A DNA stretch of 64,000 nt from an uncultured bacterium (lineage in GTDB: Bacteria > Muiribacteriota > UBA6191), in assembly GCA_964503595.1 (NCBI GenBank), contig CAZDAM010000002.1, positions 9,335 to 73,334 of the forward strand, in the 5' to 3' direction. Each line of letters begins with the position of its first letter. Position 1 is the first letter of the stretch. Positions 21,801-60,192 of the stretch are shown here, piece after piece. The translations under genes and the position numbers were made by a program. The notes under the pieces were generated by a model. That model was not told the origin of the DNA. It ran no database searches and worked only from the letters and a program-made list of their open reading frames with translations.

Positions 21801-22361
21801 TTAAATGTATTCCTGAAACAGTTCCGGCCTGGGGCTTGCAATCACTGTTCGGGCAACAACCATACCACGCTCACTGGCAGCTTCACAGGCAACATCGATC
21901 GAAGCCTTCACACTGGACAGATCGCCGGTAATCAGGAGAAAGCCCTTGCCGCCGACAGCCATGGCCAGGTGAACCCGAAAAACCTGCCCATCCGAAGTTT
22001 TGGCTGCAGCATCCGCCGCTTCCACAATGGATGCCACGGAAAAGGTCTCGAGAATTCCCAAGGCCCCGACCTGTTCCGGTTCGAGATGAATCGAGCCTCC
22101 AATGGCACGGAATACATCCGGATGAAGATTGGGAATAATGAGCTCTTCAATCAGAACCCCCCGAGCTGCTGCTGCTCCGGCCTGAACCGCAGCCTCAACT
22201 TCTGAGACCTGTCCTCCAACCACTACCATATATTTCCCCGAACAGATGGAACGGGCCACCATCAGTTCAACATCGGCCGCCTTGAGCATGGAGTCCTGAG
22301 CAGCGTAGCCAATCGCAATGGATGAGAGTTCGATCATTCCAATGGCATCATGATTCTTCAT
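21801..22361 (-). CDS. pduT: Bacterial microcompartment shell protein, tandem-BMC-domain PduT-like (Fe-S pore type)
   Basis: 186 aa; near-colinear with Salmonella PduT as recalled: AIGMIELSSIAIGYAAQDSMLKAADVELMVARSICSGKYMVVVGG vs [45 protein letters not shown], including the pore Cys; second BMC repeat present. Confidence 0.85.
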   Translation of the reverse strand: MKNHDAIGMIELSSIAIGYAAQDSMLKAADVELMVARSICSGKYMVVVGGQVSEVEAAVQAGAAAARGVLIEELIIPNLHPDVFRAIGGSIHLEPEQVGALGILETFSVASIVEAADAAAKTSDGQVFRVHLAMAVGGKGFLLITGDLSSVKASIDVACEAASERGMVVARTVIASPRPELFQEYI

Positions 22362-23663
22362 CTAGCGTTCCTCAACGATTACGGCATCCCCCACCGAAGT
22401 TACCACACCGGAAATGGATGCATGGATCCAGGCACCCAGCCCTTCAGGGCGACCAATCGGATCCCCGGCCTCAACCTTCTGCCCCACCTTGACCAAAGCC
22501 ACTGCCGGAGCTCCGACATGCTGGTTCAAAGGAATTGTCACGAGTTCTCCTCCGACAATCCCGGCTTTCAGGGGTGCTTCATTTCTGTACTGATCAATAT
22601 TGAGTTTTTTCATCAGCTTGGGGATCGGAGCCTTTCGAAAAGGTGCCATCGGGTGAGCTTTCACACTGCCTGGCTCAAATTTCATGCGCTCGGCCTTATC
22701 TTTGACCTGCATCATACGCTTGAAGTTCGTAGAAATATTCTTGGGATCCAGATCTTCCGGACAGGCATAGAAACTGCACAGATTGCACTCGCAGCAGAAC
22801 TCCGCCCCCTTGACCAGATCCAGAGGCGTCGTCCAAAACCCCATGCTGCGCATGTTTTTATGTGGCTCAATCGGATGACCCAGCAGATAACGGGGGCAGA
22901 GCTCAGTGCAGAAATTGCACTGATCGCAACTGGCCTTGGCTATTTTATCGTACTCCTTGCGGGGCCTGACATGCCGGCGAATCAGATCGTGATTGCGGGG
23001 AAAGACCAGAATCCCTCCCATGGTTTTGGTCACCGGGGTCTCGAAATTCTCCGAGACGCTTCCCATCATGACTCCGCCCAGCAACAGAACCGGGTCCTCA
23101 CAGGTAACCCCACCAGCAGCATCGATACACTCCCTCACAGTTGCTCCGACCTTGACTTCCAGAGAACAGGGCTCAACAACAGCTCCACCCACCGACAGCC
23201 AGGACGTGATCACGGGACGGGAACGGGCTACATTCAGAAGAGTTTCCACATTGGTAACTATACAACCAACAGAAAGCGGAATATTCCCGGGAGCTACGGT
23301 CCGGCCCGTGGCTTCCCAAACCAGAACCAGCTCATCCCCTGCCGGATAGTAATTCCCCATTTTCAGAAATTCCATACCCTCCAGAAGATGAGGTTCAAGG
23401 GCTTCAAACACAGATTTGTATTTGGCCTTGATCCCAAAGATTCCCCGCGTGGCCCCACTCAGATCCATGATCTGCCTCAAAGCCTGGATCACCTCTTTGG
23501 GGTAAGCCTTGAGAATTTCCTTGTCCTTATGCAGAAGTGGCTCACACTCGGCGGCATTGACAATTACGGTATCGGCCTTGGCGTTGTATTTGACATGGGC
23601 CGGAAACCCGGCACCGCCGGCACCGACAACACCCCAGTTTTCAATATTTTTCACAAGCGACAT
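22362..23663 (-). CDS. pduS: PduS-like RnfC-family flavin/Fe-S oxidoreductase (cobalamin-reductase-like)
   Basis: 433 aa; N-terminal NADH-binding GVVGAGGAGFPAHVKY (Complex1_51K-like), two 4Fe-4S motifs (CDQCNFCTELCP, CCECNLCSFYACP), C-terminal RnfC_N-like barrel (LVKVGQKVEAGDPIG...IHASISGVVTSV); this domain order is that of PduS; abuts pduT with 0-bp spacing. Confidence 0.75.
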   Translation of the reverse strand: MSLVKNIENWGVVGAGGAGFPAHVKYNAKADTVIVNAAECEPLLHKDKEILKAYPKEVIQALRQIMDLSGATRGIFGIKAKYKSVFEALEPHLLEGMEFLKMGNYYPAGDELVLVWEATGRTVAPGNIPLSVGCIVTNVETLLNVARSRPVITSWLSVGGAVVEPCSLEVKVGATVRECIDAAGGVTCEDPVLLLGGVMMGSVSENFETPVTKTMGGILVFPRNHDLIRRHVRPRKEYDKIAKASCDQCNFCTELCPRYLLGHPIEPHKNMRSMGFWTTPLDLVKGAEFCCECNLCSFYACPEDLDPKNISTNFKRMMQVKDKAERMKFEPGSVKAHPMAPFRKAPIPKLMKKLNIDQYRNEAPLKAGIVGGELVTIPLNQHVGAPAVALVKVGQKVEAGDPIGRPEGLGAWIHASISGVVTSVGDAVIVEER

Positions 23664-27008: not shown

Positions 27009-27533
27009 ATGAAAATCAACACCTCCCGCTTTGGCGAGATTGATGTGCCTGATGAGGACATCATTACCTTTCCCTATGGAATTCTGGGATTTGACAAGTC
27101 ATCCCAGTATGTCATCCTCAATGATCCTGCCACTGAACCTCTCCGATGGCTTCAGAGCATTCAGGAAGACGATCTGGCCTTCGTGATCATCGACCCCTTG
27201 CGCTTCAGGGTCGAATACGAACTCGATCTTTCCGATGAAGATGTCGAAAGTCTGGAACTGACATCCCCGGAGGAAGCCATCACCTATGCCATTGTGGTTA
27301 TTCCCAAGAATGAACCCCAACGTATGACGGCCAATCTTCAGGGCCCCATCGTCATCAACGCTGCCAAAATGGTGGCCAAGCAGGTCATCTCCACAAACCC
27401 CCAGCACAGGCTCAAGCATTTCGTCCTCGAAGAAATGCGATCCATGATGCTTGCCCGCAAGAAATCCGAGCGCCCTGATCTGAAGCTGAACCGCAAACAG
27501 CATCCATCGAAAACGGGTCAGGGAGGCGTATAA
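27009..27533 (+). CDS. fliW: Flagellar assembly factor FliW
   Basis: ITFPYGILGFDKSSQYVIL, LAFVIIDPLRF, MTANLQGPIVIN are diagnostic FliW segments. Confidence 0.85.
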   Translation: MKINTSRFGEIDVPDEDIITFPYGILGFDKSSQYVILNDPATEPLRWLQSIQEDDLAFVIIDPLRFRVEYELDLSDEDVESLELTSPEEAITYAIVVIPKNEPQRMTANLQGPIVINAAKMVAKQVISTNPQHRLKHFVLEEMRSMMLARKKSERPDLKLNRKQHPSKTGQGGV

Positions 27534-27766
27534 TGCTTGTACTGACTCGTAAAAAGAACCAGAAAATCATGATCGGAGACACCATAGAGCTCACGATCGT
27601 GGACATTAAGAATGAACAGATCAAAATCGGGGTCAACGCTCCCTCTCACGTCAAGGTCTTCCGCAAGGAAGTCTATGATGCGATTCAGGAAGAAAACCGC
27701 GCCGCTTCACAGGAAGGCATCACTGTAGAAAGCCTGAGAAGCCTCTCGGATCTTTTCAAGGGCTGA
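27533..27766 (+). CDS. csrA: Carbon storage regulator CsrA
   Basis: MLVLTRKKNQKIMIGDTIELTIVDIKNEQIKIGVNAPSHVKVFRKEVYDAIQEEN is a near-consensus CsrA; start overlaps the fliW stop. Confidence 0.9.
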   Translation: MLVLTRKKNQKIMIGDTIELTIVDIKNEQIKIGVNAPSHVKVFRKEVYDAIQEENRAASQEGITVESLRSLSDLFKG

Positions 27767-29070: not shown

Positions 29071-30669
29071 TCAGCGCAGGCGCTCTGCGGAATCCTGGAG
29101 AAATCTGGAATCCTGATTCAAACGGAGATCGAGCTGGCGACGGAGCTGAATCAAGCTGGCTCTTCCTTCCTGAATAAGAGCCAAAACCCGGCTCTGGGCT
29201 TCAATCAGGGCCTGCTCCTGCTGCTGAAGATTGCGTTTGTCTTCCATCAGAAAAGCCACATTCTCCGCAGAAATGCTTCCTGACTGCTCCAATAATCGAA
29301 GCTTGCGATCCAGATTGTCCTTGTCCCTCTGAATTTTTTCCCGTTCCCGTTCGATTCTTAGAAGATCCGACTCCCGCTGGGCAATGAAACGCCGGGTCTG
29401 ATCCAGCTGACCGCCTTTTGCCAGAAGATTGGTCCGGATATCCTCAGGACTCACTCCCCGACGGGCGACTTCTTCCCGCAAACGGGCCCGTTCATCCATT
29501 ACGCGACGGGAATCCGCTTCCAGAAGGTTCTGCCGCCCCTCAATCTTGTCCCCGGAAATTCCCGGAGGCAGATTCATGGCTCCCCCCATACCGGGAAACA
29601 GAGTTGCCGCCTGGCGATCCATTCCCATTGGCAGGACATCCGTCTGGGCAAGAGGAATATCAAGCCAGTGAGCATAAGTTGTGGTTCTGGGGGTATTTTC
29701 TTTGGATGGATCCTTCAAACCCTTCTCTTCCCTCTCTCTCCACTCTTCAGCCCTCGTCTGAATTTCCATCATGCGGCTCTGTTCCGGATCTACATTCACA
29801 CTCGTTGAGGGGGGCAGCTGACTCAAAGGCCCCAGAAGAGCCTGCTCCCAGGCATGAATCCTGTTTTCCAGAGCAAAGCGGGCGGGCTCTTCCGGGTTAC
29901 CCCGCACAAGCCGTGAAAGTTCTCCCGGTTTCAACAGGTACTGAATGTCTCTTGAGCCATTCAAAACTGCCAGAATCCCTTCCAGAGAATAGACCTGCAC
30001 CACATCCTCCCTCAAAAGCTCTGCATAGGCTCTTTGACCAAGCATCCGGACTCCGGCTCCGGCAATATGAAGCTCTCGACGTGAGGCTGACTCACCGATA
30101 CTGATATGCATACCTCCGGCAATCAGCTGGGGAATTCGACCCGCAATCAGAACGGAGCGTGGTAGAAGAAGAAGTTCCAGACCCTCAAGAAACACCTTGG
30201 TCAGACCCCTGGGGCCTGTTTCCAGCCGATCTCCCTGAGTCAGAAGAATACTTCCCTGGACAACCCGGAAATCAAAGACCCCGGGACGGGAGAGACGCAC
30301 CGGCCAGGCAGCTTCAGCTTTCATCGTCGTATCCGGAACCGGTCCGTTCTGTTGAGAAGTTTCCCCTCCTGTATCCAGAACCCATTGCCACTGATTCTGC
30401 CACCGACTCAGGAGCTGACCATTTCTCAAGGTATAGGTGCGTCCTGGAGCCAGAGTGAAACTCCCCTGTCCTCCGGCAATGATCCCACCCCGGAAATCAT
30501 CCGAGGTCTGCCATTCACTTCCATTTTTCAGCCATTCCCTGCTCAGGATTCGACGGGGAGCCTCTCCGGAAAATATCCAGGCACTTCCTTCCGCCACAAT
30601 CAGTTCCACAGCAAGGCTGAATCCCGACAGAAACAGAAAGAGACTACAGGCGCAGACGCGTACCCACAT
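29071..30669 (-). CDS. Secreted hypothetical protein (532 aa) with C-terminal coiled coil
   Basis: Signal peptide MWVRVCACSLFLFLSGFSLA; C-terminal heptad-rich region. Confidence 0.5.
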   Translation of the reverse strand: MWVRVCACSLFLFLSGFSLAVELIVAEGSAWIFSGEAPRRILSREWLKNGSEWQTSDDFRGGIIAGGQGSFTLAPGRTYTLRNGQLLSRWQNQWQWVLDTGGETSQQNGPVPDTTMKAEAAWPVRLSRPGVFDFRVVQGSILLTQGDRLETGPRGLTKVFLEGLELLLLPRSVLIAGRIPQLIAGGMHISIGESASRRELHIAGAGVRMLGQRAYAELLREDVVQVYSLEGILAVLNGSRDIQYLLKPGELSRLVRGNPEEPARFALENRIHAWEQALLGPLSQLPPSTSVNVDPEQSRMMEIQTRAEEWREREEKGLKDPSKENTPRTTTYAHWLDIPLAQTDVLPMGMDRQAATLFPGMGGAMNLPPGISGDKIEGRQNLLEADSRRVMDERARLREEVARRGVSPEDIRTNLLAKGGQLDQTRRFIAQRESDLLRIEREREKIQRDKDNLDRKLRLLEQSGSISAENVAFLMEDKRNLQQQEQALIEAQSRVLALIQEGRASLIQLRRQLDLRLNQDSRFLQDSAERLR

Positions 30670-32110
30670 AGGTCAGCCTTTCGTTACGGTCATTGATCGG
30701 AAAATTGGGATGACGCTCCTCTTCCTGACGATATCCGGCATTCAGGGAAATATTTTTGCCGGTACGATACTCGAACATGATGTCCTGACCATCCAGATCA
30801 AAGCTGGAATCAATCGTATTCTCAAAAGCCAGAATTGTACGGGATTCCCTTTCCAGAGTCCCGGTAACACTAAAGCGGGGGCGAAAATCCCAGGTTGCAC
30901 TCAAAACGGCAAAGCTTCGATCTGCATCCGCATAAAGCAGGCGGGAAGAGTCATAGCGCTTTTCTTCCATTTCATACCAGAGCATGGCCGACCAGTTGGT
31001 ATCAAAACCCCAGTCAATGCTGGTGCGGGCATTGAACTGCCCAAAATCCCTGGAAGAATCCAGATCATAAAAAGTCTTCTGGTATTCCACTTCCTGTCCA
31101 ATCTGCCAGCCCCCTCTTTGCAGATTCCAGGTAAAGCGCCCTTCTCCCCGCTCATAATCAAGAATATCGGAAGGCAGGGACTGCTGGGTATAATCGCGAA
31201 CGGAATAGCCCCCACCCACACCAAAGCTATGCCCTTCATTCAAGACAAAAAGAGTCTGGGCCATAAATCGGTTTTCCAGAAAACTGCGGGCCGCAGAGGT
31301 TCTCAGATCCACATCACGCATGCGGTATTCCGCATCAAAATACATCGCACTGGTTTCCCTTACCGTCTCTTTGTAGGGCTCGGGAATCTCGGGAACATCC
31401 ACTACACTTGCCGCATAGCCAAAACCGCCGTCCTTGAGAAGCTCTCTTTCGGTATCCGAAAAATGACGGCCTATGAAAACTCTCCCCCTTCCCGCGGGAA
31501 TTACCATCCGGCTTCTGTATCGGGGGGGGGCCACCCGGTAAAAGCTGATGAAAAGCTCCTGAGTGTCATAGCTGTCCGAGGGACTGAAATCAAAATCCAC
31601 TTGGTGGCGGGCATAGCCCGCAGCAATCCGGCGAAAGCCATCCAGATGCCTTTCCAGAGCCAGACTTGCTCCCAAATCATCATAGGCAAAGCTGGTGAAT
31701 CTCCTGTCATCGTGGGTTTCATATGAAATCTGCCCCCGCAAGAAGGCAGGCCCCATCCAGTGGAGAAGTCCATCAATGCGTAGATCATTGTCAAGTGATT
31801 CATAGCGCCGGGCCAGCTGAAAATCGTCATTCAGCCTGAAAGAAAGGGAATCCGTGATGGATAGATCCAGCTTATCTATGCGGCGATACCAGGAAAACCA
31901 GGCATCTCCATGCTGCCGAACCCCTTTGACATCCGTTTTGACCGGGATCGTGCGGGTCAGAAAAGCTGAACGGGTTTCTGATTCCCCGTCCTCCATGAAA
32001 ATACCCAGAGTACCGCCCAGATAGCCATATTTCCCGATTTCCAGGGCAGGGGCGTCCCTGGCTCCAATCAAGGCCAAGCAGAATGCGATAAGAAAAGGAC
32101 GAAAACCCAT
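30644..32110 (-). CDS. Outer-membrane beta-barrel protein (hypothetical)
   Basis: Signal peptide MGFRPFLIAFCLALIGA; Tyr/Arg/Asp-rich alternating strands; contains an in-frame C9 tract (plus-strand G9, 31522-31530). Confidence 0.45.
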   Translation of the reverse strand: MGFRPFLIAFCLALIGARDAPALEIGKYGYLGGTLGIFMEDGESETRSAFLTRTIPVKTDVKGVRQHGDAWFSWYRRIDKLDLSITDSLSFRLNDDFQLARRYESLDNDLRIDGLLHWMGPAFLRGQISYETHDDRRFTSFAYDDLGASLALERHLDGFRRIAAGYARHQVDFDFSPSDSYDTQELFISFYRVAPPRYRSRMVIPAGRGRVFIGRHFSDTERELLKDGGFGYAASVVDVPEIPEPYKETVRETSAMYFDAEYRMRDVDLRTSAARSFLENRFMAQTLFVLNEGHSFGVGGGYSVRDYTQQSLPSDILDYERGEGRFTWNLQRGGWQIGQEVEYQKTFYDLDSSRDFGQFNARTSIDWGFDTNWSAMLWYEMEEKRYDSSRLLYADADRSFAVLSATWDFRPRFSVTGTLERESRTILAFENTIDSSFDLDGQDIMFEYRTGKNISLNAGYRQEEERHPNFPINDRNERLTYVGTRLRL

Positions 32111-34024: not shown

Positions 34025-35044
34025 TCAGGTAATCAGTTCGTCTTCGCCACCTCGGGAGATCACCAGATCTCCGGCCTCTTCCAGGGTACGAACCACATTG
34101 ACGATTTTCTGCTGAGCCTCTTCCACGTCCCTGATTCTGACCGGACCCATAAAGGCCATGTCGTCCTGAAGCATCTGCGCCGCACGTTTGGACATGTTTT
34201 TGAGGAATTTCGATTTGACGTCGTCGGAGGAACCCTTGAGAGCAAGCCCCAGATCCTTGGTGTCGATTTCCTTGAGAACCCTCTGAATTCCGCGGTCGTC
34301 GAGCATGTTGAGATCCTCGAAAACGAACATGCGCTTTTTGATTTCCTCGGCAAGATCCGGATTCTGGATTTCCAGGTTGTCAATAATGGTTTTCTCAGTA
34401 CCACGATCGACGATATTAATGATTTCCACCAGAGAGTCCACCCCCCCCACCGTGGTGTAATCGGTAGACGATACCGTAGAGAGCTTCTTTTCCAGAATGG
34501 CTTCCACATCACGGACGATCTCAGGAGAAGTTCTGTCCATAAGAGCCAAACGCTTGGCTGCCTCCACCTGAATTTCCGAAGGGAAGCTGGAAAGAATCGC
34601 CGCCGCCTTGTCTGGTTGCAGATAGGCCAGAATGAGAGCAATCGTCTGGGGATGCTCACCGGAAATGAAGTTCTGAAGATGTTCCGGATCCGCTGCACGA
34701 ATCAAATCAAAAGGCTGGACCTCAAGAGAGGATGTCAATTTGGAAATGATGCTCTCCGCCATGTCATCACCCACTGCTGAACGCAGGAAATCACGGGCTG
34801 CGGAAACACCTCCCTGGGTGATGAACTCCTGAGCTTTGAGCATATTATAGAACTCTTCAACCACCAGATCCCGATCCTCGGGTTCCACCTTGCGAATCTT
34901 GGCAATTTCTATGGCAACGGATTCCATCTCTTCTTCGGTCAAAAGCTTCACTACATCCCGTGACAGATCCGGCCCCAGAAACATCAGAAAGATGGCCACT
35001 TTGATGCGGGCCGTAAGTTCTTTCTTTTTCGTAGGACTTGCCAT
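34025..35044 (-). CDS. fliG: Flagellar motor switch protein FliG (stand-alone copy)
   Basis: 339 aa; FliG N, middle and C-domain signatures (ILAYLQPDKAAAILSSFPSEIQVEAAKRLALMD; MFVFEDL; DDMAFMGPVRIRDVEEAQQKIVNVVRTLEEAG). Confidence 0.9.
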   Translation of the reverse strand: MASPTKKKELTARIKVAIFLMFLGPDLSRDVVKLLTEEEMESVAIEIAKIRKVEPEDRDLVVEEFYNMLKAQEFITQGGVSAARDFLRSAVGDDMAESIISKLTSSLEVQPFDLIRAADPEHLQNFISGEHPQTIALILAYLQPDKAAAILSSFPSEIQVEAAKRLALMDRTSPEIVRDVEAILEKKLSTVSSTDYTTVGGVDSLVEIINIVDRGTEKTIIDNLEIQNPDLAEEIKKRMFVFEDLNMLDDRGIQRVLKEIDTKDLGLALKGSSDDVKSKFLKNMSKRAAQMLQDDMAFMGPVRIRDVEEAQQKIVNVVRTLEEAGDLVISRGGEDELIT

Positions 35045-38260: not shown

Positions 38261-39970
38261 TCAGTAATGCATCAGGGACTGTACCCCGTAATCTTTCAGG
38301 CGCTCACGACCTTCCAGAAAATCGAGCTCAATCAGAAACATCATTCCGGCCACCTTGCCCCCGGACTTTTCAATCAGAAAAGCCGTTGCCTCTGCTGTGC
38401 CTCCGGTTGCCAGAACATCATCAATGACCAGAACGGACTGGCTCTTGACGATTCCTTCCTGAATCTCAAGCGTAGCTTCTCCGTACTCAAGAGCATAGGA
38501 ACGGCTTAGAACCGGTCCTGGCAACTTCCCGGCCTTGCGAATGGGAACAAACCCAACCCTGAGGGCCTGGGCCAAAGCCGCCCCCAGAATAAACCCGCGG
38601 GATTCCACTCCGGCAATCAGATCAACCTGGCGGTCCTTGATCAGCCCCTGAAAAAGCCGGATGACATCAGAAAGACCATTGGGAGCCGCCAGTAAAGGAG
38701 CGATATCCTTGAAAACCACCCCGGGTTTCGGAAAATCCGGAACATCCCTCACGAGTTCCTTCAGACGCCCGAGGGCGGTGCGAACCCGTTTGGACTGCAA
38801 ATCGGTAAAGACCTTGCGGGTAAAATCCTGAACCCACTCTTCACTGATCTGCTCTTTCTGCTGCTTGATTTCCCCAATCCGGCTTAAAGCCACCATGGCG
38901 TTTTTCTTGACGTATTCCGAGGAATCCCGCAAAGCATCCACCAGATCCAGAGTGGAATCCTCAACACCGATTTCTCCAAGTGCCTGGGCTGCTGAAGCCC
39001 TGACCGACCAGAAGGAATCATGCTTGAGAATATGGGTGATCTGATCGAGCATTTCCTTGGCCTGCAAGTCCCCCAGAACCTTCACTGCCCAGTAGCGGAT
39101 ATCCGTATTTTTACTTTTTAAGGCACGCGAGAGTTTTTCAATACAGGAATCCCCAAGTTCCCACAGGGTTTCAGCCGCCTGCTTCCTGACAAACCAGTTG
39201 GCATCCCCAAGCATCTGAATCAGAGGATCAATGATTTCCGGGGTATCCATGGAGCGCATGCCCTGAATGATGGATTGCTTCTGATCTACCGGAAGCTCCT
39301 CATCCATGAGCTTCACCACCAAAGCCTTGCAGGCCTTGCTGCCACCGACTTCACTTAGAACCTGGATGGCCCAGAACTCCCGATCATGATGCCCGCAGTT
39401 CAAAACTCCAATTACTTCATCCACGCAAAGCTGCCCAAGCTGAATCAGACCGCTGGCAGCAGATTTTCGAATTGTCCACTGAGTGTCATCCAGACAGTGA
39501 ATCAATGGCTTGACAGCTTCCCGGACCCCGGTTCTTCCCAAGGCCGAAATCGCACAGAGCTTCGCCGGGAGTTCCTCCCCTTCAATCAGAGAAACCAGGG
39601 TTTCTACCGAGCGGCTCCCGAACTGGGAAATCACTTCGCTGATCCAGAACTGAATATCGTCATCATTGCTGCGGGCCATATCCAGAAGAGTATCCAGATA
39701 ATGGCTGCCCAATCCGGCAAGGACTCTGGCCGCATTGCGCCTGACACCCCAGGAGGAATGCTTCAGGGCTCCAATCAGATGGGGAAGAGCACGCTCTCCA
39801 TATCCTTCCAGCACCTTGACTGCTTCCTGGGAAACCGCTTCATTATCATCGCCTAACGCTTCGATCAGAAGCGAGATTGATTCAGCTCCCGGTTTATCCT
39901 TGAGCGATGCCACGGTTTCACGGCGCACCCGGTAATCCACATCCTGTAAAGCTTCCAGAATTGCTTTCAT
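38261..39970 (-). CDS. apt: Fusion protein: N-terminal PBS-lyase HEAT repeats (~390 aa) + C-terminal adenine phosphoribosyltransferase
   Basis: C-terminal 170 aa match APRT (FKDIAPLLAAPNGL, VDLIAGVESRGFILGAALA, PRPP motif VLVIDDVLATGGTAEA); N-terminal RRETVASLKD, WGVRRNAARVLAGLG etc. are HEAT repeats; start ATG overlaps the dnaN stop (ATGA). Confidence 0.8.
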   Translation of the reverse strand: MKAILEALQDVDYRVRRETVASLKDKPGAESISLLIEALGDDNEAVSQEAVKVLEGYGERALPHLIGALKHSSWGVRRNAARVLAGLGSHYLDTLLDMARSNDDDIQFWISEVISQFGSRSVETLVSLIEGEELPAKLCAISALGRTGVREAVKPLIHCLDDTQWTIRKSAASGLIQLGQLCVDEVIGVLNCGHHDREFWAIQVLSEVGGSKACKALVVKLMDEELPVDQKQSIIQGMRSMDTPEIIDPLIQMLGDANWFVRKQAAETLWELGDSCIEKLSRALKSKNTDIRYWAVKVLGDLQAKEMLDQITHILKHDSFWSVRASAAQALGEIGVEDSTLDLVDALRDSSEYVKKNAMVALSRIGEIKQQKEQISEEWVQDFTRKVFTDLQSKRVRTALGRLKELVRDVPDFPKPGVVFKDIAPLLAAPNGLSDVIRLFQGLIKDRQVDLIAGVESRGFILGAALAQALRVGFVPIRKAGKLPGPVLSRSYALEYGEATLEIQEGIVKSQSVLVIDDVLATGGTAEATAFLIEKSGGKVAGMMFLIELDFLEGRERLKDYGVQSLMHY

Positions 39971-41106
39971 GCTACCCTCTGAGTCAAAGACATGATCACA
40001 CAGACAAAGCGCCCCTCTCCCTCGGCCTGTTCTTCAGGCCAGAAGTAAACCGGCATTTCTTCACCTTCACAAAACAGGCTGATACGATCGGATTCCACCG
40101 AACCCAGAAAATCAAGAACATATTTGGAATTCAGGGCAACGCTCAGGCCTTCCAGTTCCTGCGATTCCACTTCAAGCTCTCTCCAGCCTGTTCCCATTTT
40201 ATCCGAGAAAGACTCCATTCCAAAAGACGAACCCTTCACCTGGAAGGAAACCCGGTTGCCAATATCGCGGGAAACCGGCATCAGGCCCCTGAGATGATTG
40301 GTAAGCGGAAGACGGGGAAGGGCGATACTGCGCTCACCAAGGTCTTCGGGAAAGAAACCCTCGTAATCCATGAACTGACCTTCTGCCAGCATGGTCTGGA
40401 AAATCAGGCTTCCATGGCGGAGCAGAACGCGGCCTCCACCCTGCTGAAACTCCACTTCATCATCCGGAAGAATTTTCAGAAGATCCTGCACCGAAGCCAG
40501 ACTGAGCAGCCATTCCAACTGAAGCTCTTCAAAACCTTCGAGGCCCAGGACAGATTCCGCAAGCCGCCAGCCATCCTGAGAAGCAATCTTCAGACTGCCA
40601 TTCTCGGCGAAAAGTCTTACCCCGTGAAAGCCCTGAACCGTATTCTCAGTCTGGGCAGATGCATGGGCTCCAAACTTCAGGGCCTTCTTGAGACGGGCAC
40701 CATGCAGAAGAAAGGAAAGATCTGCCTCAAGAAGTTCCACATTGGGGTATTCCTGCACATCACGGGTCATTGCCTCGAAGCGGGCCCCAAGATCAGGCAC
40801 AGCAATCAGAAGGCGCCGGTTTTCGAGGTTTTCCAGCAAAATGGGATGCCGATCGGATTCCGGCATACTTCTGACACACTCAGAGAAAAACTGCCCCTGA
40901 ACCAGAGCTTCGCCCTCTGAATCGACCTTTGCAGGAATTTCAGTCGAAATGAAAGTCTTCAGATCCGTGGCTGCCATTTCCAGCACGCCACCTTTGGCAC
41001 GCAGGCGGATGCAGGTTAACTCCAGAATGGAAGTACTGCCCGGCAAAGCCCTCTGGACAACTTCAAGACCTTTTAAAAGTTCCGCACGTTCGCAATGAAT
41101 TTTCAT
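39967..41106 (-). CDS. dnaN: DNA polymerase III beta sliding clamp (divergent DnaN)
   Basis: 379 aa; MKIHCERAELLKGLEVVQRALPGSTSILELTCIRL...ATDLKTFIST parallels DnaN domain I; C-terminal VALNSKYVLDFLGSV parallels the DnaN domain III motif. Confidence 0.75.
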   Translation of the reverse strand: MKIHCERAELLKGLEVVQRALPGSTSILELTCIRLRAKGGVLEMAATDLKTFISTEIPAKVDSEGEALVQGQFFSECVRSMPESDRHPILLENLENRRLLIAVPDLGARFEAMTRDVQEYPNVELLEADLSFLLHGARLKKALKFGAHASAQTENTVQGFHGVRLFAENGSLKIASQDGWRLAESVLGLEGFEELQLEWLLSLASVQDLLKILPDDEVEFQQGGGRVLLRHGSLIFQTMLAEGQFMDYEGFFPEDLGERSIALPRLPLTNHLRGLMPVSRDIGNRVSFQVKGSSFGMESFSDKMGTGWRELEVESQELEGLSVALNSKYVLDFLGSVESDRISLFCEGEEMPVYFWPEEQAEGEGRFVCVIMSLTQRVA

Positions 41107-41578
41107 GCTGGCCCCTCTCTTTTAAAGATTTTTTTTCGCGAAGGAATGAAAACACAGGGAGATTGGGATCGCAAAGACGAAAAAAGAGCCCCTCGCAGCA
41201 ACAAGCGGCCAGGGGCTCTTTCCTAAGAAACCAAATCCAGACGCTCCCACATAAGTTCACCCGTCATTTTCAGCTCTGTCCCGACTTCATGCTGAAACCA
41301 CTTTCCAGGACTGTTCCGAAAATCGTAGTCAGAAGTATTCGGACTTCAAGAATTAAAACGATCCACTCCTTGTTGCCCTCTTGACAGACAGGGTAAAATA
41401 ATTTCGAGGGCGTTGATCCGTGCGTCCTGCGACAGTGGAAGACTCCGAACCCCGCCAGGTCTGTGATGGAAGCAACGGCAGGATGCGCTTTCAGGTGTTT
41501 CAGGGTTTCCGTGCGGGGAGTCCTCTTTTCTTTTTCCAGATTCTTGACACATTTTACATGTGGCTTAAGGTCCTTGAC

Positions 41579-42067
41579 ATGACGTATAAATTTCTGATTC
41601 CCACTCTAGCTCTTTCCACGTTGCTCCACCTGGCCCATCATACCAATGCAGGCGGTTTTGGCCAGTCCACAGAGTCGGACACGATTGAGCTTCCCGAGCA
41701 GGATAGCCCTGTCTCTCCTCCCGAACTGGAAATGGTTTCAAAGGAATCTCTGGACGAAAGTACGTCAGCCTGGGAAACAACCACTCCGGAGAATTACCGG
41801 GGCTGGTGGATCTGCGCATCTCTCCGCTGCCGCATGTTCAAAGAGCCGGATCGTTCTTCTGAAGTTTTTCTGGAAATGACCAAAGGAGAAATGGTCTTCA
41901 TTCTCAACGAAGAAAGAGCCGCTGATTCGGAATTTTCCGAGCACATCCGCTATGCCAAGGCTGTACGCATTTTCGGCACCGAAGAATCCGAGGAAATCAA
42001 CGAAGTCAAAGGCTATGTGATTGAATTGGATGGCACCAGGCTCCCCCCCCAGAAAAATCGAGATTGA
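41579..42067 (+). CDS. Secreted protein, N-terminal part of a probably frameshifted gene (signal peptide + unknown domain)
   Basis: Start at ATG 41579 (MTYKFLIPTLALSTLLHLAHHTNA signal peptide); reading frame terminates 17 nt after a C8 tract (42043-42050). Confidence 0.45.
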   Translation: MTYKFLIPTLALSTLLHLAHHTNAGGFGQSTESDTIELPEQDSPVSPPELEMVSKESLDESTSAWETTTPENYRGWWICASLRCRMFKEPDRSSEVFLEMTKGEMVFILNEERAADSEFSEHIRYAKAVRIFGTEESEEINEVKGYVIELDGTRLPPQKNRD

Positions 42068-42674
42068 CCTGGCCGGTTCCATTACCGTGCAGAATATTCC
42101 TCAGTATAATCAGGGACTCCCTGATCCTCATGCTGAGGAAGAAGATTATGCCGGCTGGAAACCCGGTGGCTACTGCGGTCCAACCTCACTTCAGATGCTG
42201 GCTGAATTCCATGGCTACAAACTCACCCGCGATCAAATTGCCCGTACCAGCGCCCGTGACGGCGAAATCAGCCTGGACAAAGGCACCATGCATGGAAGCG
42301 AATACATTTATGCCTGGGATAAGGGAACTGCCCGGGCCAACATCCCTGATGTCATGAAGAAGCTGGGCTTTCGGACCGCAGATCTCAGGCAGGGAGAAGA
42401 CTATTCCCGGCTAAGATATATGGTTCGCCGGAGCACCCATCTTCTGGTCAATGTCAAAGGCAGAGTCAAATTCACGGATGAGGGCCCAAGCTACAAGACC
42501 GGTGGGCACTATATGGTGCTGGTGGGCATGGATGCCAACGACAATCCGATTGTCAACGACCCCTACCCCTGGAAAGCCGAGCAGGAAGTCCCCGTACAAA
42601 GAATTATGGATCGGGAATCCTTTGAAAACGCGTGGAGCCGGGGTGGCGCCATGTGGCTGAAGCTCATTCCCTAA
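42021..42674 (+). CDS. C39-like papain-fold peptidase domain protein (likely C-terminal part of the same gene; frameshift at the C8 tract)
   Basis: CGPTSLQMLAEFHGY (catalytic Cys region) and GGHYMVLVGMDANDNPIVNDPY (His region) resemble Peptidase_C39-like; no RBS before its ATG; a -1 change in the C8 tract fuses it to the upstream ORF. Confidence 0.5.
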   Translation: MNWMAPGSPPRKIEIDLAGSITVQNIPQYNQGLPDPHAEEEDYAGWKPGGYCGPTSLQMLAEFHGYKLTRDQIARTSARDGEISLDKGTMHGSEYIYAWDKGTARANIPDVMKKLGFRTADLRQGEDYSRLRYMVRRSTHLLVNVKGRVKFTDEGPSYKTGGHYMVLVGMDANDNPIVNDPYPWKAEQEVPVQRIMDRESFENAWSRGGAMWLKLIP

Positions 42675-43506
42675 ACCAACCCCAGACCTTTGCCCCCAGA
42701 CTCAGGCCATTCAAAACCGGACTCAGCAATGCCAGTCCGGTTTTTTTATGCCGGAAAATCAGCGAGGCAAAGCTGATGCCAAACCAGCGGAACTGGGCCG
42801 AAAACAAAGGCCAGGTTTTCTCCTTATGCCTCTTCATCATGCGGGCCTGCCAATAGCCATGCAAAAAAACCATGCGGCAGAAGCTTCTGAACGAGTCTTT
42901 TCTTTGATGACAGACCCGAAGATCCGGCTCATAACAGATGCCTACTCCCTGCTTTCTCAGGCGATAGCTCAAATCCAGATCTTCCCCATGTGAGACCAGT
43001 TCCAGAGAAAACCGTTTTTCACCAAGCAGGCTCTTTGTCCCCAGAAAGCAAAGACCCATGCAGAACGGAACTTCTTCCAGGGCCTTCTCTCCAAACGTCT
43101 GACGAAAGAAATGAAAGCGGTAAAAATCCCAGTCCGTCAGAATCGGAGCTGTCGCTTCCTGCCCTGCCGTAAGCGTTTCTCCAGAAAATTTCTGTAAGAT
43201 CTCCCGACAGGATGAATCCGGCATGGTATCCGCATCCAGAAACCAGAAGCCTTCCGTCTGGCAGTGAGACAAAAGCTCATTTCTGGTGTAGGAAAGACCC
43301 CGATTCTCCTCCCGCTTCAGATGCCGGACTGGAATCTCTCCCCCGGTAGGAAACCGGCACTCGGTTTTACAACCATCGCAACACACCAGAATCTCCTGAA
43401 TCTCGGGGGCAAAACCCTGCTGCAAAGACTCCAATAGCGAAAACAGAGTCCCGTGCATTTCATAGCAGGGAATCAGAACGGAAATTTCCATGCCGCTGTT
43501 TTTCAT
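42664..43506 (-). CDS. Family-2 glycosyltransferase
   Basis: ISVLIPCYEM...D.D motif region FLDADTMPD; 280 aa. Confidence 0.65.
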   Translation of the reverse strand: MKNSGMEISVLIPCYEMHGTLFSLLESLQQGFAPEIQEILVCCDGCKTECRFPTGGEIPVRHLKREENRGLSYTRNELLSHCQTEGFWFLDADTMPDSSCREILQKFSGETLTAGQEATAPILTDWDFYRFHFFRQTFGEKALEEVPFCMGLCFLGTKSLLGEKRFSLELVSHGEDLDLSYRLRKQGVGICYEPDLRVCHQRKDSFRSFCRMVFLHGYWQARMMKRHKEKTWPLFSAQFRWFGISFASLIFRHKKTGLALLSPVLNGLSLGAKVWGWFRE

Positions 43507-43567: not shown

Positions 43568-43882
43568 CTAAACTAGCTTCTCATCAATAACGTTTTGTAT
43601 AAGCCTTGCTGCATGGAAAATGGTTACGATTTCTATGCTGTCCTCTCTGACTCGATAGACTATGCGGTAAGACTTGTGAATCCTCTCTCTTAAGTCTTCC
43701 CGTCCGTATTCAGGAACGATACGCCCAGAGCTTGGAAATGGTGCCGCCTTCTCAATCAAAAAGATTACCTTTTCGGCTGTGACTTTAGCGTAATAAGCAG
43801 AACGATTTGCGATGTATTCGCAAACTCTCTCTAGATCACCAGCAGCTTTTTCAGACCAGACTACCCTTAGCTTTCGAGCCAT
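43568..43882 (-). CDS. RelE/ParE-family type II toxin
   Basis: 104 aa; ...RIVYRVREDSIEIVTIFHAARL typical RelE/ParE C-terminal beta-strand motif; overlaps the upstream small antitoxin gene by 16 nt. Confidence 0.7.
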   Translation of the reverse strand: MARKLRVVWSEKAAGDLERVCEYIANRSAYYAKVTAEKVIFLIEKAAPFPSSGRIVPEYGREDLRERIHKSYRIVYRVREDSIEIVTIFHAARLIQNVIDEKLV

Positions 43883-44055
43883 TTGGAGAGCTTTAGTTTT
43901 ACTTGATCATGTTCCAGAGTTTGGCCATTGTCCAGCTGTTCCATGCCTTCATCAACTTGCATCTTGAAGCAAAGCTCTTCAATGACATCGTCAATAGTAA
44001 GGGTGTCTGGCATCTTCTCAATGAGATCAATAATTTGCTGTTTTAAGACTGACAT
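43867..44055 (-). CDS. Putative antitoxin (addiction-module component) paired with the RelE/ParE toxin
   Basis: 62-aa acidic protein immediately upstream of and overlapping the toxin; local AT-rich composition relative to flanks. Confidence 0.55.
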   Translation of the reverse strand: MSVLKQQIIDLIEKMPDTLTIDDVIEELCFKMQVDEGMEQLDNGQTLEHDQVKLKLSKWLES

Positions 44056-59070: not shown

Positions 59071-60192
59071 ATGAAATCCATTTTCAATAAACCAATCGTT
59101 CCCATCAGGAAATCTATGGCCATACCCAAACTTCTCGGACTTCTGTTTACCCCTGCCCTGGCTTTTTTCATCTGGTATTCCGGTGCTCTTGGAAACAAGC
59201 AGGAAATCGGAGGACTTGAAGCCAGAAAACCCGCATCCCAAATGCAGGTCAGAGTCGTTGTCAAACCTGTTCTTGAGATGCACGATGCGAAAACCTTCCG
59301 TTCGGTTGGGACAGGACGGGCCCATAAATCCGTTAGTCTGCATCCCCCGGTATCCGAGGAAATTTTAGAAGTCCTCTTCAAGGGGGGGGAAAGTGTCAAA
59401 CAGGGACAGGTTCTGGTTCGACTGGATGATCGGGATGAAAAACTGGCCGTAGAACTTGCTCAGGTTCGCTTGAACGAAGCCCGGGTTCTCTTGAAGCGCT
59501 ATGATTCCGCAGCCAAGGGAAATGCGATTGCCGAAAACGAGGTCGTTGCGGCCAGAGCTGCCGTCGATGTTGCCGAAGTCGTCCTCAAGCAGGCCCAGCT
59601 TGCCCTGACCCAGAGAACCGTGCTGGCCCCGTTTGACGGAACCGTTGGTATCCCAAGAGTGGATCCGGGGGATCGGATCACAGCCAGTACAGAAATTGCC
59701 CCCTTAGATGATCAAAGCCGGATTCAGGTTGATTTTGAAATTCCGGAAATCCTGATTGATTCCATCAAACCCGGAATGAAGGTCTTTGCCAGGACTCCAG
59801 CCTTCCCCGATGAACAGTTTGCCGGGACAGTCGAAGCCATCAATACCAGAGTCGATCCCCTGACCAGAACCATCCAGCTCAGAACCCTGATTCCCAATCC
59901 CAGGGACCGCCTCAAATCGGGAATGTCCTTTGAAGTCAGTCTCGATTTCACCGGAGCGACCTACCCATCCATTCCGGAAATCGCCCTCAAGTGGAGCCGG
60001 GAAGGTTCTTATGTCTGGGTCGTGCGCGAAGGAAAGTCCCACAAGGTCATGGCCCGTGTCATTGCCCGCTCCCGTGGCTATGTCATGGTAGAAGCTGAAC
60101 TCAAGGCTGATGAGCCTGTCGTCGTCGCCGGAGCAGAGCGCTTAAGAGACGGGCGGGAAGTGCTCACCGGACAACTGAAAGTTCAGGAGTAG
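59071..60192 (+). CDS. RND efflux periplasmic adaptor (membrane fusion protein)
   Basis: Lipoyl/alpha-hairpin/beta-barrel layout (QVLVRLDDRDEKLAVELAQVRLNEARVLLKRY...); precedes the RND permease with a 4-nt gap; contains an in-frame G8 tract. Confidence 0.8.
   Translation: MKSIFNKPIVPIRKSMAIPKLLGLLFTPALAFFIWYSGALGNKQEIGGLEARKPASQMQVRVVVKPVLEMHDAKTFRSVGTGRAHKSVSLHPPVSEEILEVLFKGGESVKQGQVLVRLDDRDEKLAVELAQVRLNEARVLLKRYDSAAKGNAIAENEVVAARAAVDVAEVVLKQAQLALTQRTVLAPFDGTVGIPRVDPGDRITASTEIAPLDDQSRIQVDFEIPEILIDSIKPGMKVFARTPAFPDEQFAGTVEAINTRVDPLTRTIQLRTLIPNPRDRLKSGMSFEVSLDFTGATYPSIPEIALKWSREGSYVWVVREGKSHKVMARVIARSRGYVMVEAELKADEPVVVAGAERLRDGREVLTGQLKVQE

What the first reader, a model, noticed from the sequence alone, without database searches (positions are those of the whole stretch)
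41579..42674. C8 homopolymer tract splits a secreted C39-like peptidase gene into two overlapping ORFs (phase-variation-like switch or frameshift)
An ORF starting with a signal peptide (41579) terminates 17 nt after a C8 run at 42043-42050. A second ORF in the -1 frame starts inside it, without an RBS, and encodes a papain-like C39-type peptidase with the Cys region CGPTSLQ and His region GGHYMVLVG.

Removing one C reads straight through as ...GTRLPPRKIEIDLAGS..., giving a single ~365-aa secreted peptidase. This is the classic slipped-strand ON/OFF configuration. It could also be a pseudogene or a homopolymer sequencing error.
Basis: seen in the sequence. Interest (0 to 1): 0.55.

Follow-up and report, generated by a model that had tools for sequence, protein, structure and literature searches.

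The report
Frameshifted secreted cysteine peptidase gene
A run of eight C's has knocked a secreted papain-like (C39-like) peptidase gene of an uncultured Black Sea bacterium out of frame; the break is real and ordinary, most likely a slippage-made null allele, with no evidence that it works as an on/off switch.

Summary
C8 sits at 42043-42050. ORF1 (41579-42067) stops 17 nt after it. ORF2 (42021-42674) overlaps it in the +1 frame, not -1 as written. Deleting one C gives a 364-aa protein: signal peptide, disordered stretch, beta-rich N-domain, linker, Peptidase_C39_2 domain (C199/H310/D327).

A 380-aa single-ORF homologue (P0003, 37% identity) aligns across the junction and has no C tract there. 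The gene was therefore once one ORF, and the tract is lineage-specific.

The frameshift is unlikely to be an assembly error:
- Three assemblies of one Black Sea sample show C8.
- A separate contig that differs by 2 SNPs also shows C8.
- Five other G/C runs of 7-9 nt in the window are in frame, three of them in Pfam-verified genes (FliG, HflX, HlyD-type).

Nothing shows a working switch:
- No in-frame (ON) allele exists in any public assembly searched.
- The tract is what Pro-Pro gives with this genome's preferred CCC codon, in a linker that is Pro-rich in two of the more distant relatives.
- Both SNPs between the two populations are nonsynonymous.

Programmed +1 frameshifting lacks a slow 0-frame codon and is not conserved.

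Best reading: a replication-slippage null allele (a young pseudogene, or the OFF state of a simple tract). It is reversible in principle. Read pile-ups are needed to decide. Interest is low.

The parts
41579..42067 (+). ORF1. It codes for a signal peptide (residues 1 to about 25), a disordered acidic/Pro-rich stretch (about 24-76), a beta-rich N-terminal domain (about 77-144) and the start of the linker. As sequenced it ends ...LPPQKNRD* at TGA 42065-42067.
   Evidence: The AF2 secondary structure shows helix 6-20 and strands 77-144. P0003 aligns from its own signal peptide onward. Gene callers used the upstream GTG 41420 instead, giving 215 aa (P0002/P0063).
42043..42050 (+). C8 homopolymer, read as CTC CCC CCC C. 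It codes Leu-Pro-Pro in the linker between the two domains (fused residues 155-157). C7 or C10 would put the two ORFs in frame.
   Evidence: The length is the same in L001, L002 and L026.
42021..42674 (+). ORF2, in the +1 frame relative to ORF1. It holds the rest of the linker and the complete catalytic domain. The first ATG is at 42030 and the stop is TAA 42672-42674.
   Evidence: P0001 (214 aa) is the gene call for this ORF in public assemblies.
42093..42566 (+). Peptidase_C39_2 (PF13529) domain, fused residues 172-329. The catalytic codons are Cys199 (42174-42176), His310 (42507-42509) and Asp327 (42558-42560).
   Evidence: Pfam E 1.5e-15, 58.5 bits against a cut-off of 24. C199 and H310 are conserved in at least 90% of 46 homologues and D327 is invariant. 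pLDDT is above 90. The top Foldseek hit is 3erv, a C39-like peptidase. Codons were checked.
42713..42747 (+). Hairpin with an 11-bp stem followed by T7, about 40 nt after the ORF2 stop. It is a likely intrinsic terminator for the peptidase transcript. It lies inside the 3' end of the convergent GT2 ORF.
   Evidence: RNA fold -21.5 kcal/mol, z = -2.4. Sequence read.

Best explanation
This is a genuine one-base expansion (C7 to C8) of a poly-C tract, made by replication slippage. The tract codes Pro-Pro in the linker between the two domains of a secreted peptidase gene. The ancestral layout was signal peptide, beta-rich N-domain, then a Peptidase_C39_2 catalytic domain.

As sampled, the gene is off:
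- Ribosomes translate the signal peptide and N-domain, read five out-of-frame codons and stop.
- The catalytic domain is not made. The exceptions are rare spontaneous +1 slips of tRNA-Pro on CCC-C, or weak internal initiation, which would give a cytoplasmic domain with no signal peptide.

The null allele is the consensus in two slightly diverged populations. It is therefore most likely a young pseudogene, or equivalently the OFF state of an unselected, weakly mutable tract. The same slippage could restore the frame (C7 or C10), but nothing shows that the organism exploits this as a switch.

Shown here: the tract, the split, the single-ORF ancestry, the intact catalytic residues, and the same tract length in all assemblies. 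Inferred: slippage as the cause, loss of function, secretion, and the substrate (possibly cell-wall peptides, because SH3b + C39_2 is a cell-wall-hydrolase-like layout).
For: - The tract, frames and repaired 364-aa product are as described.
- The single-ORF homologue P0003 (380 aa, E 1.4e-43) aligns over query residues 84-358 across the junction, and its DNA has no C run there.
- More distant relatives are single ORFs. Six of the nine scanned show an SH3_3 match followed by Peptidase_C39_2.
- C8 is present in the window, in Logan contig L001 and ENA scaffold L026 (same sample; 0 and 1 SNP, no indels), and in ENA contig L002 from another assembly (2 SNPs in 1450 bp).
- FliG (G8), the HlyD-type protein (G8), HflX (G7), the outer-membrane-protein-like ORF (C9) and a 748-aa ORF (C7) are all in frame. 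No other homopolymer-split gene pair turned up in 64 kb.
- CCC is the commonest Pro codon (264 of 690), and the linkers of two more distant homologues (P0004, P0010) are Pro-rich. A C7 tract therefore needs no selection for mutability.
- Both SNPs between the two populations are nonsynonymous (D34V, and Gly to Arg at ORF2 codon 32). This fits relaxed constraint.
- No in-frame (ON) allele of about 364 aa exists in the 5.8-billion-protein collection.
- Both halves keep gene-like GC at each codon position, and there is no further stop in 208 downstream codons, so the lesion is recent.
Against: - Consensus assemblies cannot show minority tract lengths, so a mixed ON/OFF population is not excluded.
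- The absence of any second lesion, the exported product, and the tract's position in a linker that would tolerate an extra Pro are also what a contingency locus would look like.
- Two SNPs are too few to measure constraint.
- The independence of the ERZ27251165 sample is inferred only from its SNPs.
Confidence: 0.55

Rival explanations
1. The tract is an evolved contingency (phase-variable) locus. It slips at high frequency, so each population holds ON (C7/C10) and OFF (C8) cells. The secreted peptidase is then made by only a fraction of cells, and both sampled populations happened to be OFF-dominant.
For: - The frameshift sits exactly at a G/C homopolymer of at least 8, and the product is exported, which is typical of contingency genes.
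- There is no other lesion, and the catalytic triad is intact.
- The tract lies in a linker where one extra or one fewer Pro should be tolerated.
- There is a mild excess of G/C runs of 8 or more: 4 observed against about 0.9-1.5 expected. One of them, a C9, is in frame in a signal-peptide-bearing outer-membrane-protein-like ORF.
Against: - All four assemblies, covering two populations, show C8, and no ON allele is found anywhere.
- P0003, the only protein homologous across both domains, has no tract.
- Equal tracts sit in FliG, HflX and a HlyD-type protein, so long G/C runs are not confined to contingency-type genes.
- C8 is at the lower limit of the tract lengths known to switch (general knowledge of Campylobacter, Neisseria and Helicobacter).
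- The tract lies 43% of the way into the gene rather than near the 5' end.
- Codon preference alone explains the tract.
Confidence: 0.25
2. It is a sequencing or assembly artefact. The true tract is C7 (or C10) and the gene is intact.
For: - Homopolymer indels are the commonest error class in metagenome-assembled genomes (MAGs).
- Three of the four assemblies come from the same reads (sample SAMEA7392479), so they are not independent with respect to read errors.
Against: - A contig from a different assembly, carrying 2 SNPs, has the same C8.
- All five other G/C runs of 7-9 nt, and the A/T runs, leave genes in frame.
- The assemblies look like short-read assemblies (MEGAHIT-style 'k141_' contig name; Logan). 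On such reads a C8 consensus is normally reliable. This last point is inference.
Confidence: 0.07
3. It is programmed recoding. The C8 allele is the functional form. A fixed fraction of ribosomes shift +1 on CCC-CCC-C (peptidyl-tRNA-Pro re-pairs with the overlapping CCC), or RNA polymerase drops a C. The result is both a secreted N-domain-only protein and the full-length peptidase.
For: - CCC-C is a documented slippery site for tRNA-Pro(UGG) (PMC4519876), and there are two such sites in tandem.
- A tRNA-Pro(UGG) gene is in the window.
- The same C8 occurs in two populations.
- The 0-frame stop follows within 5 codons.
Against: - The 0-frame A-site codon after the tract is CAG, which makes up 88% of Gln codons. 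There is no hungry or stop codon at the shift site.
- There is no convincing SD-like stimulator upstream. The nearest stable hairpin starts about 47 nt downstream, with z only -1.87.
- The site is not conserved: the homologue is a plain single ORF.
- Transcriptional slippage is best known on A/T runs (general knowledge).
Confidence: 0.06
4. They are two separately functional genes: a secreted N-domain protein, and a cytoplasmic stand-alone C39_2 peptidase translated from ATG 42030 or TTG 42021.
For: - Both frames keep coding-like composition.
- An ATG exists at 42030, and public gene callers annotate two genes.
Against: - The full-length relatives inspected carry N-terminal hydrophobic or lipoprotein-type leaders, and the short ones are fragments.
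- The 47-nt overlap has no start signal.
- The homologue shows a single ORF.
Confidence: 0.03

Closest known systems
Peptidase_C39_2 (PF13529) C39-like papain-fold cysteine peptidases, e.g. the Bacillus anthracis putative C39-like peptidase, PDB 3erv
   Same: - The Pfam match is well above the cut-off.
- The Cys, His and Asp positions are conserved.
- The predicted fold matches 3erv best (E 2.7e-8, TM 0.64 normalised to the target), followed by papain-like proteases.
- Like six of the nine relatives scanned, it has an N-terminal beta domain where they carry an SH3_3 (bacterial SH3) match.
   Different: - There is no sequence-level hit to any solved structure.
- The N-domain is not recognisable as SH3 by Pfam.
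- The gene is frameshifted.
- The substrate is unknown. PF13529 is listed as a catalytic domain of phage lysins (PMC8223927), but this protein has no phage relatives.
Canonical C39 bacteriocin-processing peptidase domains of ABC exporters (PF03412)
   Same: They belong to the same clan of papain-like Cys/His peptidases. There is a weak sub-threshold match (19 bits) around the catalytic Cys.
   Different: - The match is below the Pfam cut-off of 22 bits.
- The protein is not fused to or next to an ABC transporter. It is a Sec-type exported stand-alone protein.
- Its neighbours are dnaN and a GT2 glycosyltransferase.
Homopolymer (poly-G/C) phase-variable genes of Campylobacter, Neisseria, Helicobacter and Bordetella
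   Same: A G/C mononucleotide tract lies inside the coding region, its length sets the reading frame, and the product is exported.
   Different: - No length polymorphism is observed.
- The tract is at the minimal length.
- It is not conserved in the homologue.
- Similar tracts occur in housekeeping genes.
- The host is a free-living marine uncultured bacterium rather than a host-adapted one.
+1 programmed frameshift sites (prfB CUU-UGA-C; Listeria phage PSA CCC-UGA)
   Same: The P-site codon (CCC followed by C) allows perfect re-pairing in the +1 frame.
   Different: There is no stop or rare codon in the A site, no SD-like stimulator, and no conservation. The named examples are from general knowledge.

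Membership tests
Peptidase_C39_2 (PF13529), clan CA papain-like cysteine peptidase | Match to the family HMM above the curated cut-off | tested here: met
   58.5 bits against a cut-off of 24, E 1.5e-15, profile positions 2-143 of 143, residues 172-329 of the repaired protein.
Peptidase_C39_2 (PF13529), clan CA papain-like cysteine peptidase | Catalytic Cys and His (plus Asp/Asn) present at the conserved positions | tested here: met
   C199 and H310 are conserved in at least 90% of 46 homologues, and D327 is invariant. The codons are intact in the window.
Peptidase_C39_2 (PF13529), clan CA papain-like cysteine peptidase | Papain-like alpha+beta fold | tested here: met
   The AF2 model has pLDDT above 90 over most of residues 160-364. 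The top Foldseek hit is 3erv, a C39-like peptidase (E 2.7e-8), followed by papain-like toxins and cathepsins. This is a predicted structure only.
Peptidase_C39_2 (PF13529), clan CA papain-like cysteine peptidase | Peptidase activity and substrate | not testable with these tools
   This needs a biochemical assay of the repaired (C7) protein.
Canonical C39 bacteriocin-leader peptidase (PF03412) | HMM match above the cut-off | tested here: not met
   19.0 bits against a cut-off of 22.
Canonical C39 bacteriocin-leader peptidase (PF03412) | N-terminal domain of, or adjacent to, an ABC exporter | tested here: not met
   It is a stand-alone gene with its own signal peptide. Its neighbours are dnaN, GT2 and ParE.
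Phase-variable (contingency) locus driven by a simple sequence repeat | Repeat tract inside the gene, or between promoter elements, whose length sets expression | tested here: met
   C8 lies in the coding region. C7 or C10 restores the 364-aa ORF.
Phase-variable (contingency) locus driven by a simple sequence repeat | Tract length differs between strains or populations | tested here: not met
   C8 is seen in the window, L001, L026 and the SNP-distinct L002. No ON allele is found in the protein collection. The sample is only two populations.
Phase-variable (contingency) locus driven by a simple sequence repeat | Length heterogeneity within a population (reads or clones) | not testable with these tools
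   No read data are available. The Logan contig runs through the tract without a break, which is only weak evidence against a large minority allele.
Phase-variable (contingency) locus driven by a simple sequence repeat | Tract maintained by selection: conserved in orthologues, or confined to contingency-type genes | tested here: not met
   P0003 has no tract at the site. Runs of G8/G7 lie in FliG, HflX and a HlyD-type protein. The tract is explained by CCC codon preference.
Programmed +1 ribosomal frameshift | Slippery P-site codon that re-pairs in the +1 frame | tested here: met
   CCC CCC C: each CCC is followed by C. The slipperiness of CCC-C is documented in PMC4519876.
Programmed +1 ribosomal frameshift | Slow 0-frame A-site codon (stop or rare) at the shift site | tested here: not met
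   The A-site codon is CAG, 675 of 764 Gln codons in the window's genes. The stop lies 5 codons downstream.
Programmed +1 ribosomal frameshift | Shift site conserved in homologues | tested here: not met
   The homologue P0003 and the more distant relatives are uninterrupted ORFs.
Pseudogene | Reading frame disrupted relative to intact homologues | tested here: met
   The alignment to P0003 spans the break.
Pseudogene | Relaxed constraint or further lesions | tested here: inconclusive
   There is no further stop in 208 codons. Two of two SNPs between populations are nonsynonymous, which is too few to test.

The most novel reading that the evidence does not exclude
The C8 allele is the working form. 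Tandem CCC-C sites make a fixed share of ribosomes slip +1. One gene in a deep-branching marine bacterium would then yield an abundant secreted N-domain (binding?) protein and a small amount of full-length peptidase. This would be a stop-independent, tRNA-Pro-driven +1 recoding site.
Probability: 0.05. Interest if true: 0.6.

Novelty: new member of a known kind. Interest (0 to 1): 0.22.

Why it matters
Practically, the two annotated 'genes' (214 and 215 aa in public gene calls) should be treated as one disrupted gene for a secreted C39-like peptidase, not as two proteins. The frameshift should not be silently 'corrected' as an error.

If read data showed tract-length heterogeneity, this would be an example of homopolymer phase variation in a free-living marine member of a poorly sampled lineage. 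That would be mildly interesting, because such switches are mostly documented in host-adapted bacteria.

As it stands, this is an ordinary slippage lesion in an accessory gene.

Tried and rejected
- **Orthologue comparison of tract length.** The 5.8-billion-protein search returned only the two halves themselves. The JGI metagenome scan gave only relatives of 34% identity or less. Loci anchored on dnaN in the nearest GTDB genomes (47-48% identity: a MAG labelled Cloacimonadota, and UBP17) lack the gene. Only P0003 (37% identity) bridges the junction.
- **Tract mutability in the lineage, tested with the C9 outer-membrane-protein-like gene.** The only other copies come from the same sample and have the same length. 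FliG and HlyD look-ups gave no contig from the second population.
- **Frameshift-stimulating RNA structure.** The nearest stable hairpin starts about 47 nt downstream, with z = -1.87. Rejected.
- **Phage or endolysin origin.** There is no PHROG hit and no tblastn hit in 50,697 phage records. Rejected.
- **N-domain as SH3b.** Pfam gives only a meaningless SH3_1 hit at E 0.14. I call it 'beta-rich N-domain in the position where relatives have SH3_3'.
- **19-nt imperfect direct repeat bracketing the gene (41557-41575 and 42650-42668).** I considered it as an insertion footprint or a relic of a tandem paralogue. The local alignment score of 23 lies within the shuffles (19.6 +/- 2.0, maximum 27). 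Chance.
- **Replication origin next to dnaN.** GC skew is negative across the whole window, and there is no DnaA-box cluster in 41107-41578. Rejected.
- **First Markov simulation.** It timed out and was replaced by an analytic estimate.

Full report
**1. What is in the sequence**

The run of eight C's is at 42043-42050.
- ATG 41579 opens a frame beginning MTYKFLIPTLALSTLLHLAHHTNAGG. This has the look of a Sec signal peptide: a short N-terminal region with one basic residue (Lys4), a hydrophobic core, and T-N-A before the likely cut.
- That frame reads CTC CCC CCC CAG AAA AAT CGA GAT TGA and stops at 42065-42067, 17 nt after the tract.
- A second open frame runs 42021-42674 (first ATG at 42030, stop TAA 42672-42674).
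- It lies in the +1 frame relative to ORF1 (offset 442 nt = 3x147+1).

**2. It was one gene**

- Pfam places a complete Peptidase_C39_2 domain (PF13529, 58.5 bits against a cut-off of 24) at residues 172-329 of the repaired protein. That is entirely downstream of the tract at residues 155-157.
- An exhaustive HMMER search of 1.84 billion cluster representatives found 62 relatives.
- The best of these, P0003 (380 aa, E 1.4e-43), is a single ORF. It aligns with residues 84-358 of the repaired protein, so it spans the junction and covers part of ORF1's beta-rich domain as well as the catalytic domain.
- P0003's DNA at the equivalent position (gat ttg aaa ccc ttt gat cct gcc gat cct cag) has no homopolymer.
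- More distant relatives are also single ORFs. Six of the nine scanned show an SH3_3 match followed by Peptidase_C39_2.
- The full-length relatives inspected carry N-terminal hydrophobic or lipoprotein-type leaders. The short relatives are N-terminal fragments, not cytoplasmic stand-alone domains.
- Across 46 homologues, C199 and H310 are conserved in at least 90% and D327 is invariant.
- The AlphaFold2 model shows a signal helix (6-20), a disordered stretch (24-76), six low-confidence strands (77-144) and a catalytic domain over 160-364, most of it with pLDDT above 90. The tract is therefore in the inter-domain linker.
- Foldseek's best solved match is 3erv, a putative C39-like peptidase of Bacillus anthracis (E 2.7e-8), followed by papain-like toxins and cathepsins.
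- No solved structure matches by sequence.
- The match to the canonical bacteriocin-processing C39 family (PF03412) is below its cut-off, and no ABC exporter is nearby.

**3. Is the frameshift real?**

- The window is an NCBI MAG contig. Its 488-aa ORF equals P0065, which is recorded on a 78,433-bp NCBI contig.
- ENA scaffold KOPF15-1_SAMEA7392479_METAG-scaffold_130 (L026) differs from the window by 1 SNP and no indel over 21,467 bp, a stretch that includes the tract.
- Two Logan contigs from run ERR4674194 are identical to the window. One of them, L001, spans the tract.
- ERR4674194 is sample SAMEA7392479, Varna Bay, Black Sea (bioRxiv 10.1101/2023.07.09.547343). So three assemblers working on one sample agree.
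- Independently, ENA contig k141_1862879 of assembly ERZ27251165 (L002) differs by 2 SNPs in 1450 bp and also has C8.
- Internal controls are all in frame:
  - G8 in FliG, which has all three Pfam domains complete;
  - G8 in a HlyD-type membrane-fusion protein;
  - G7 in HflX;
  - C9 in a 488-aa outer-membrane-protein-like ORF;
  - C7 in a 748-aa ORF.
- A systematic scan found no other substantial same-strand ORF pair joined at a homopolymer.
- I therefore put an artefact at about 7%.

**4. Switch, decay or recoding?**

For a contingency switch:
- The product is exported.
- No second lesion occurs in 208 downstream codons.
- The tract sits in a linker where one extra or one fewer Pro is harmless.
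- There is a mild excess of G/C runs of 8 or more: 4 observed against about 0.9-1.5 expected, whereas A/T runs match expectation.

Against a contingency switch:
- Every assembly shows C8, and no protein of about 364 aa exists in the 5.8-billion-protein collection.
- The bridging homologue has no tract.
- Equal tracts lie in core genes.
- CCC is the commonest Pro codon (264 of 690), and the linkers of two more distant relatives (P0004, P0010) are Pro-rich. CTC-CCC-CCC-A (C7) can therefore arise without selection for mutability.
- C8 is at the bottom of the range of tract lengths that switch in known systems (general knowledge).
- Both SNPs separating the two populations are nonsynonymous: D34V, and Gly to Arg at ORF2 codon 32, a position that is not conserved. 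This leans towards relaxed constraint but is far too little to test.

Programmed +1 frameshifting:
- It has the slippery element. CCC-C is naturally shift-prone for tRNA-Pro(UGG) (PMC4519876), and a tRNA-Pro(UGG) gene is in the window.
- The A-site codon, however, is the abundant CAG (88% of Gln codons).
- No SD-like stimulator or nearby structure is present. The hairpin lies about 47 nt away, with z = -1.87.
- The site is not conserved.
- Spontaneous slips at this site may leak a little full-length protein. That is inference.

**5. Mechanism I commit to**

- *Inferred:* replication slippage added one C to a Pro-Pro-coding tract.
- *Shown from the frames:* the cell now makes a 162-aa exported fragment ending ...LPPQKNRD, and essentially no catalytic domain.
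- *Shown:* the null allele is the consensus in two closely related populations.
- *Inferred:* it is a young pseudogene or the OFF state of an unselected tract, and the same slippage could reverse it.
- The biochemical role of the intact protein is unknown. A beta-rich domain (SH3b in relatives) joined to a cysteine peptidase resembles cell-wall hydrolases, and PF13529 is listed among the catalytic domains of phage lysins (PMC8223927). This protein, however, has no phage relatives.

**6. Context**

- The gene is divergent from dnaN (39967-41106, minus strand) and convergent with a GT2 glycosyltransferase (42664-43506, minus strand), which it overlaps by 11 nt.
- A hairpin followed by T7 at 42713-42747 probably terminates its transcript.
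- The organism is poorly sampled. Its DnaN is only 47-48% identical to the nearest species representatives. The gene is absent next to dnaN there, so it is an accessory gene.

**7. Verdict**

- This is a new member of a known kind, and interest is low. Read-level tract counts would settle the question.

Noticed in passing
window 31522-31530 (ORF 30644-32110, minus strand): This is the longest G/C run in the window: G9 on the + strand, C9 on the coding strand, reading 'APPR'. It lies in frame in a 488-aa ORF with a signal peptide and beta-rich, outer-membrane-protein-like sequence, and no Pfam hit. The length is the same in the ENA and Logan assemblies of the same sample. If any tract here is a contingency tract, this is the better candidate.
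   Followed up: partly
window 34441-34448, 59382-59389, 20433-20439, 8786-8792: G/C runs of 7-8 nt sit in frame inside FliG, a HlyD-type membrane-fusion protein, HflX and a 748-aa ORF. Runs of G/C of 8 or more number 4, against about 0.9-1.5 expected from run-extension probabilities. A/T runs fit expectation (4 against 4-9). This is a mild excess of long G/C tracts with no explanation.
   Followed up: partly
window 38261-39970 (minus strand): A 569-aa protein fuses about 8 HEAT repeats to a C-terminal phosphoribosyltransferase (APRT-like) domain. Its coding region overlaps the dnaN stop by 4 nt. This is an unusual domain combination.
   Followed up: no
window 39967-41578: dnaN is not next to dnaA or to an origin. 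GC skew is negative across all 64 kb, and no DnaA-box cluster lies in the 470-bp region upstream of dnaN.
   Followed up: yes
window 42664-42747: The convergent GT2 glycosyltransferase ORF overlaps the peptidase 3' end by 11 nt. Its last 28 or so codons run through the strong hairpin plus T7/A7 terminator-like element at 42713-42747. The true 3' end of the GT2 gene may be worth checking against homologues.
   Followed up: no
window 43568-44055 (minus strand): A ParE-family toxin (104 aa, Pfam E 1.5e-15) has an overlapping 62-aa upstream ORF that is likely the antitoxin.
   Followed up: no
window 21801-23663 (minus strand) and 27009-27766 (plus strand): A BMC (microcompartment shell) domain protein lies next to an RnfC/Complex1_51K-like protein. 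A FliW-CsrA pair is also present. These come from the precomputed Pfam annotations of the identical ENA scaffold.
   Followed up: no
window 41557-41575 and 42650-42668: A 19-nt imperfect direct repeat (16 of 19 matches) brackets the peptidase gene almost exactly, just before the start codon and just before the stop. The local alignment score is within the range of shuffled controls, so this is probably chance.
   Followed up: yes
whole window: The organism is a poorly sampled lineage. DnaN is only 47-48% identical to the nearest GTDB species representatives (a MAG labelled Cloacimonadota, and UBP17). The genome itself was not found among the GTDB representatives. The source is a Black Sea (Varna Bay) metagenome.
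   Followed up: partly
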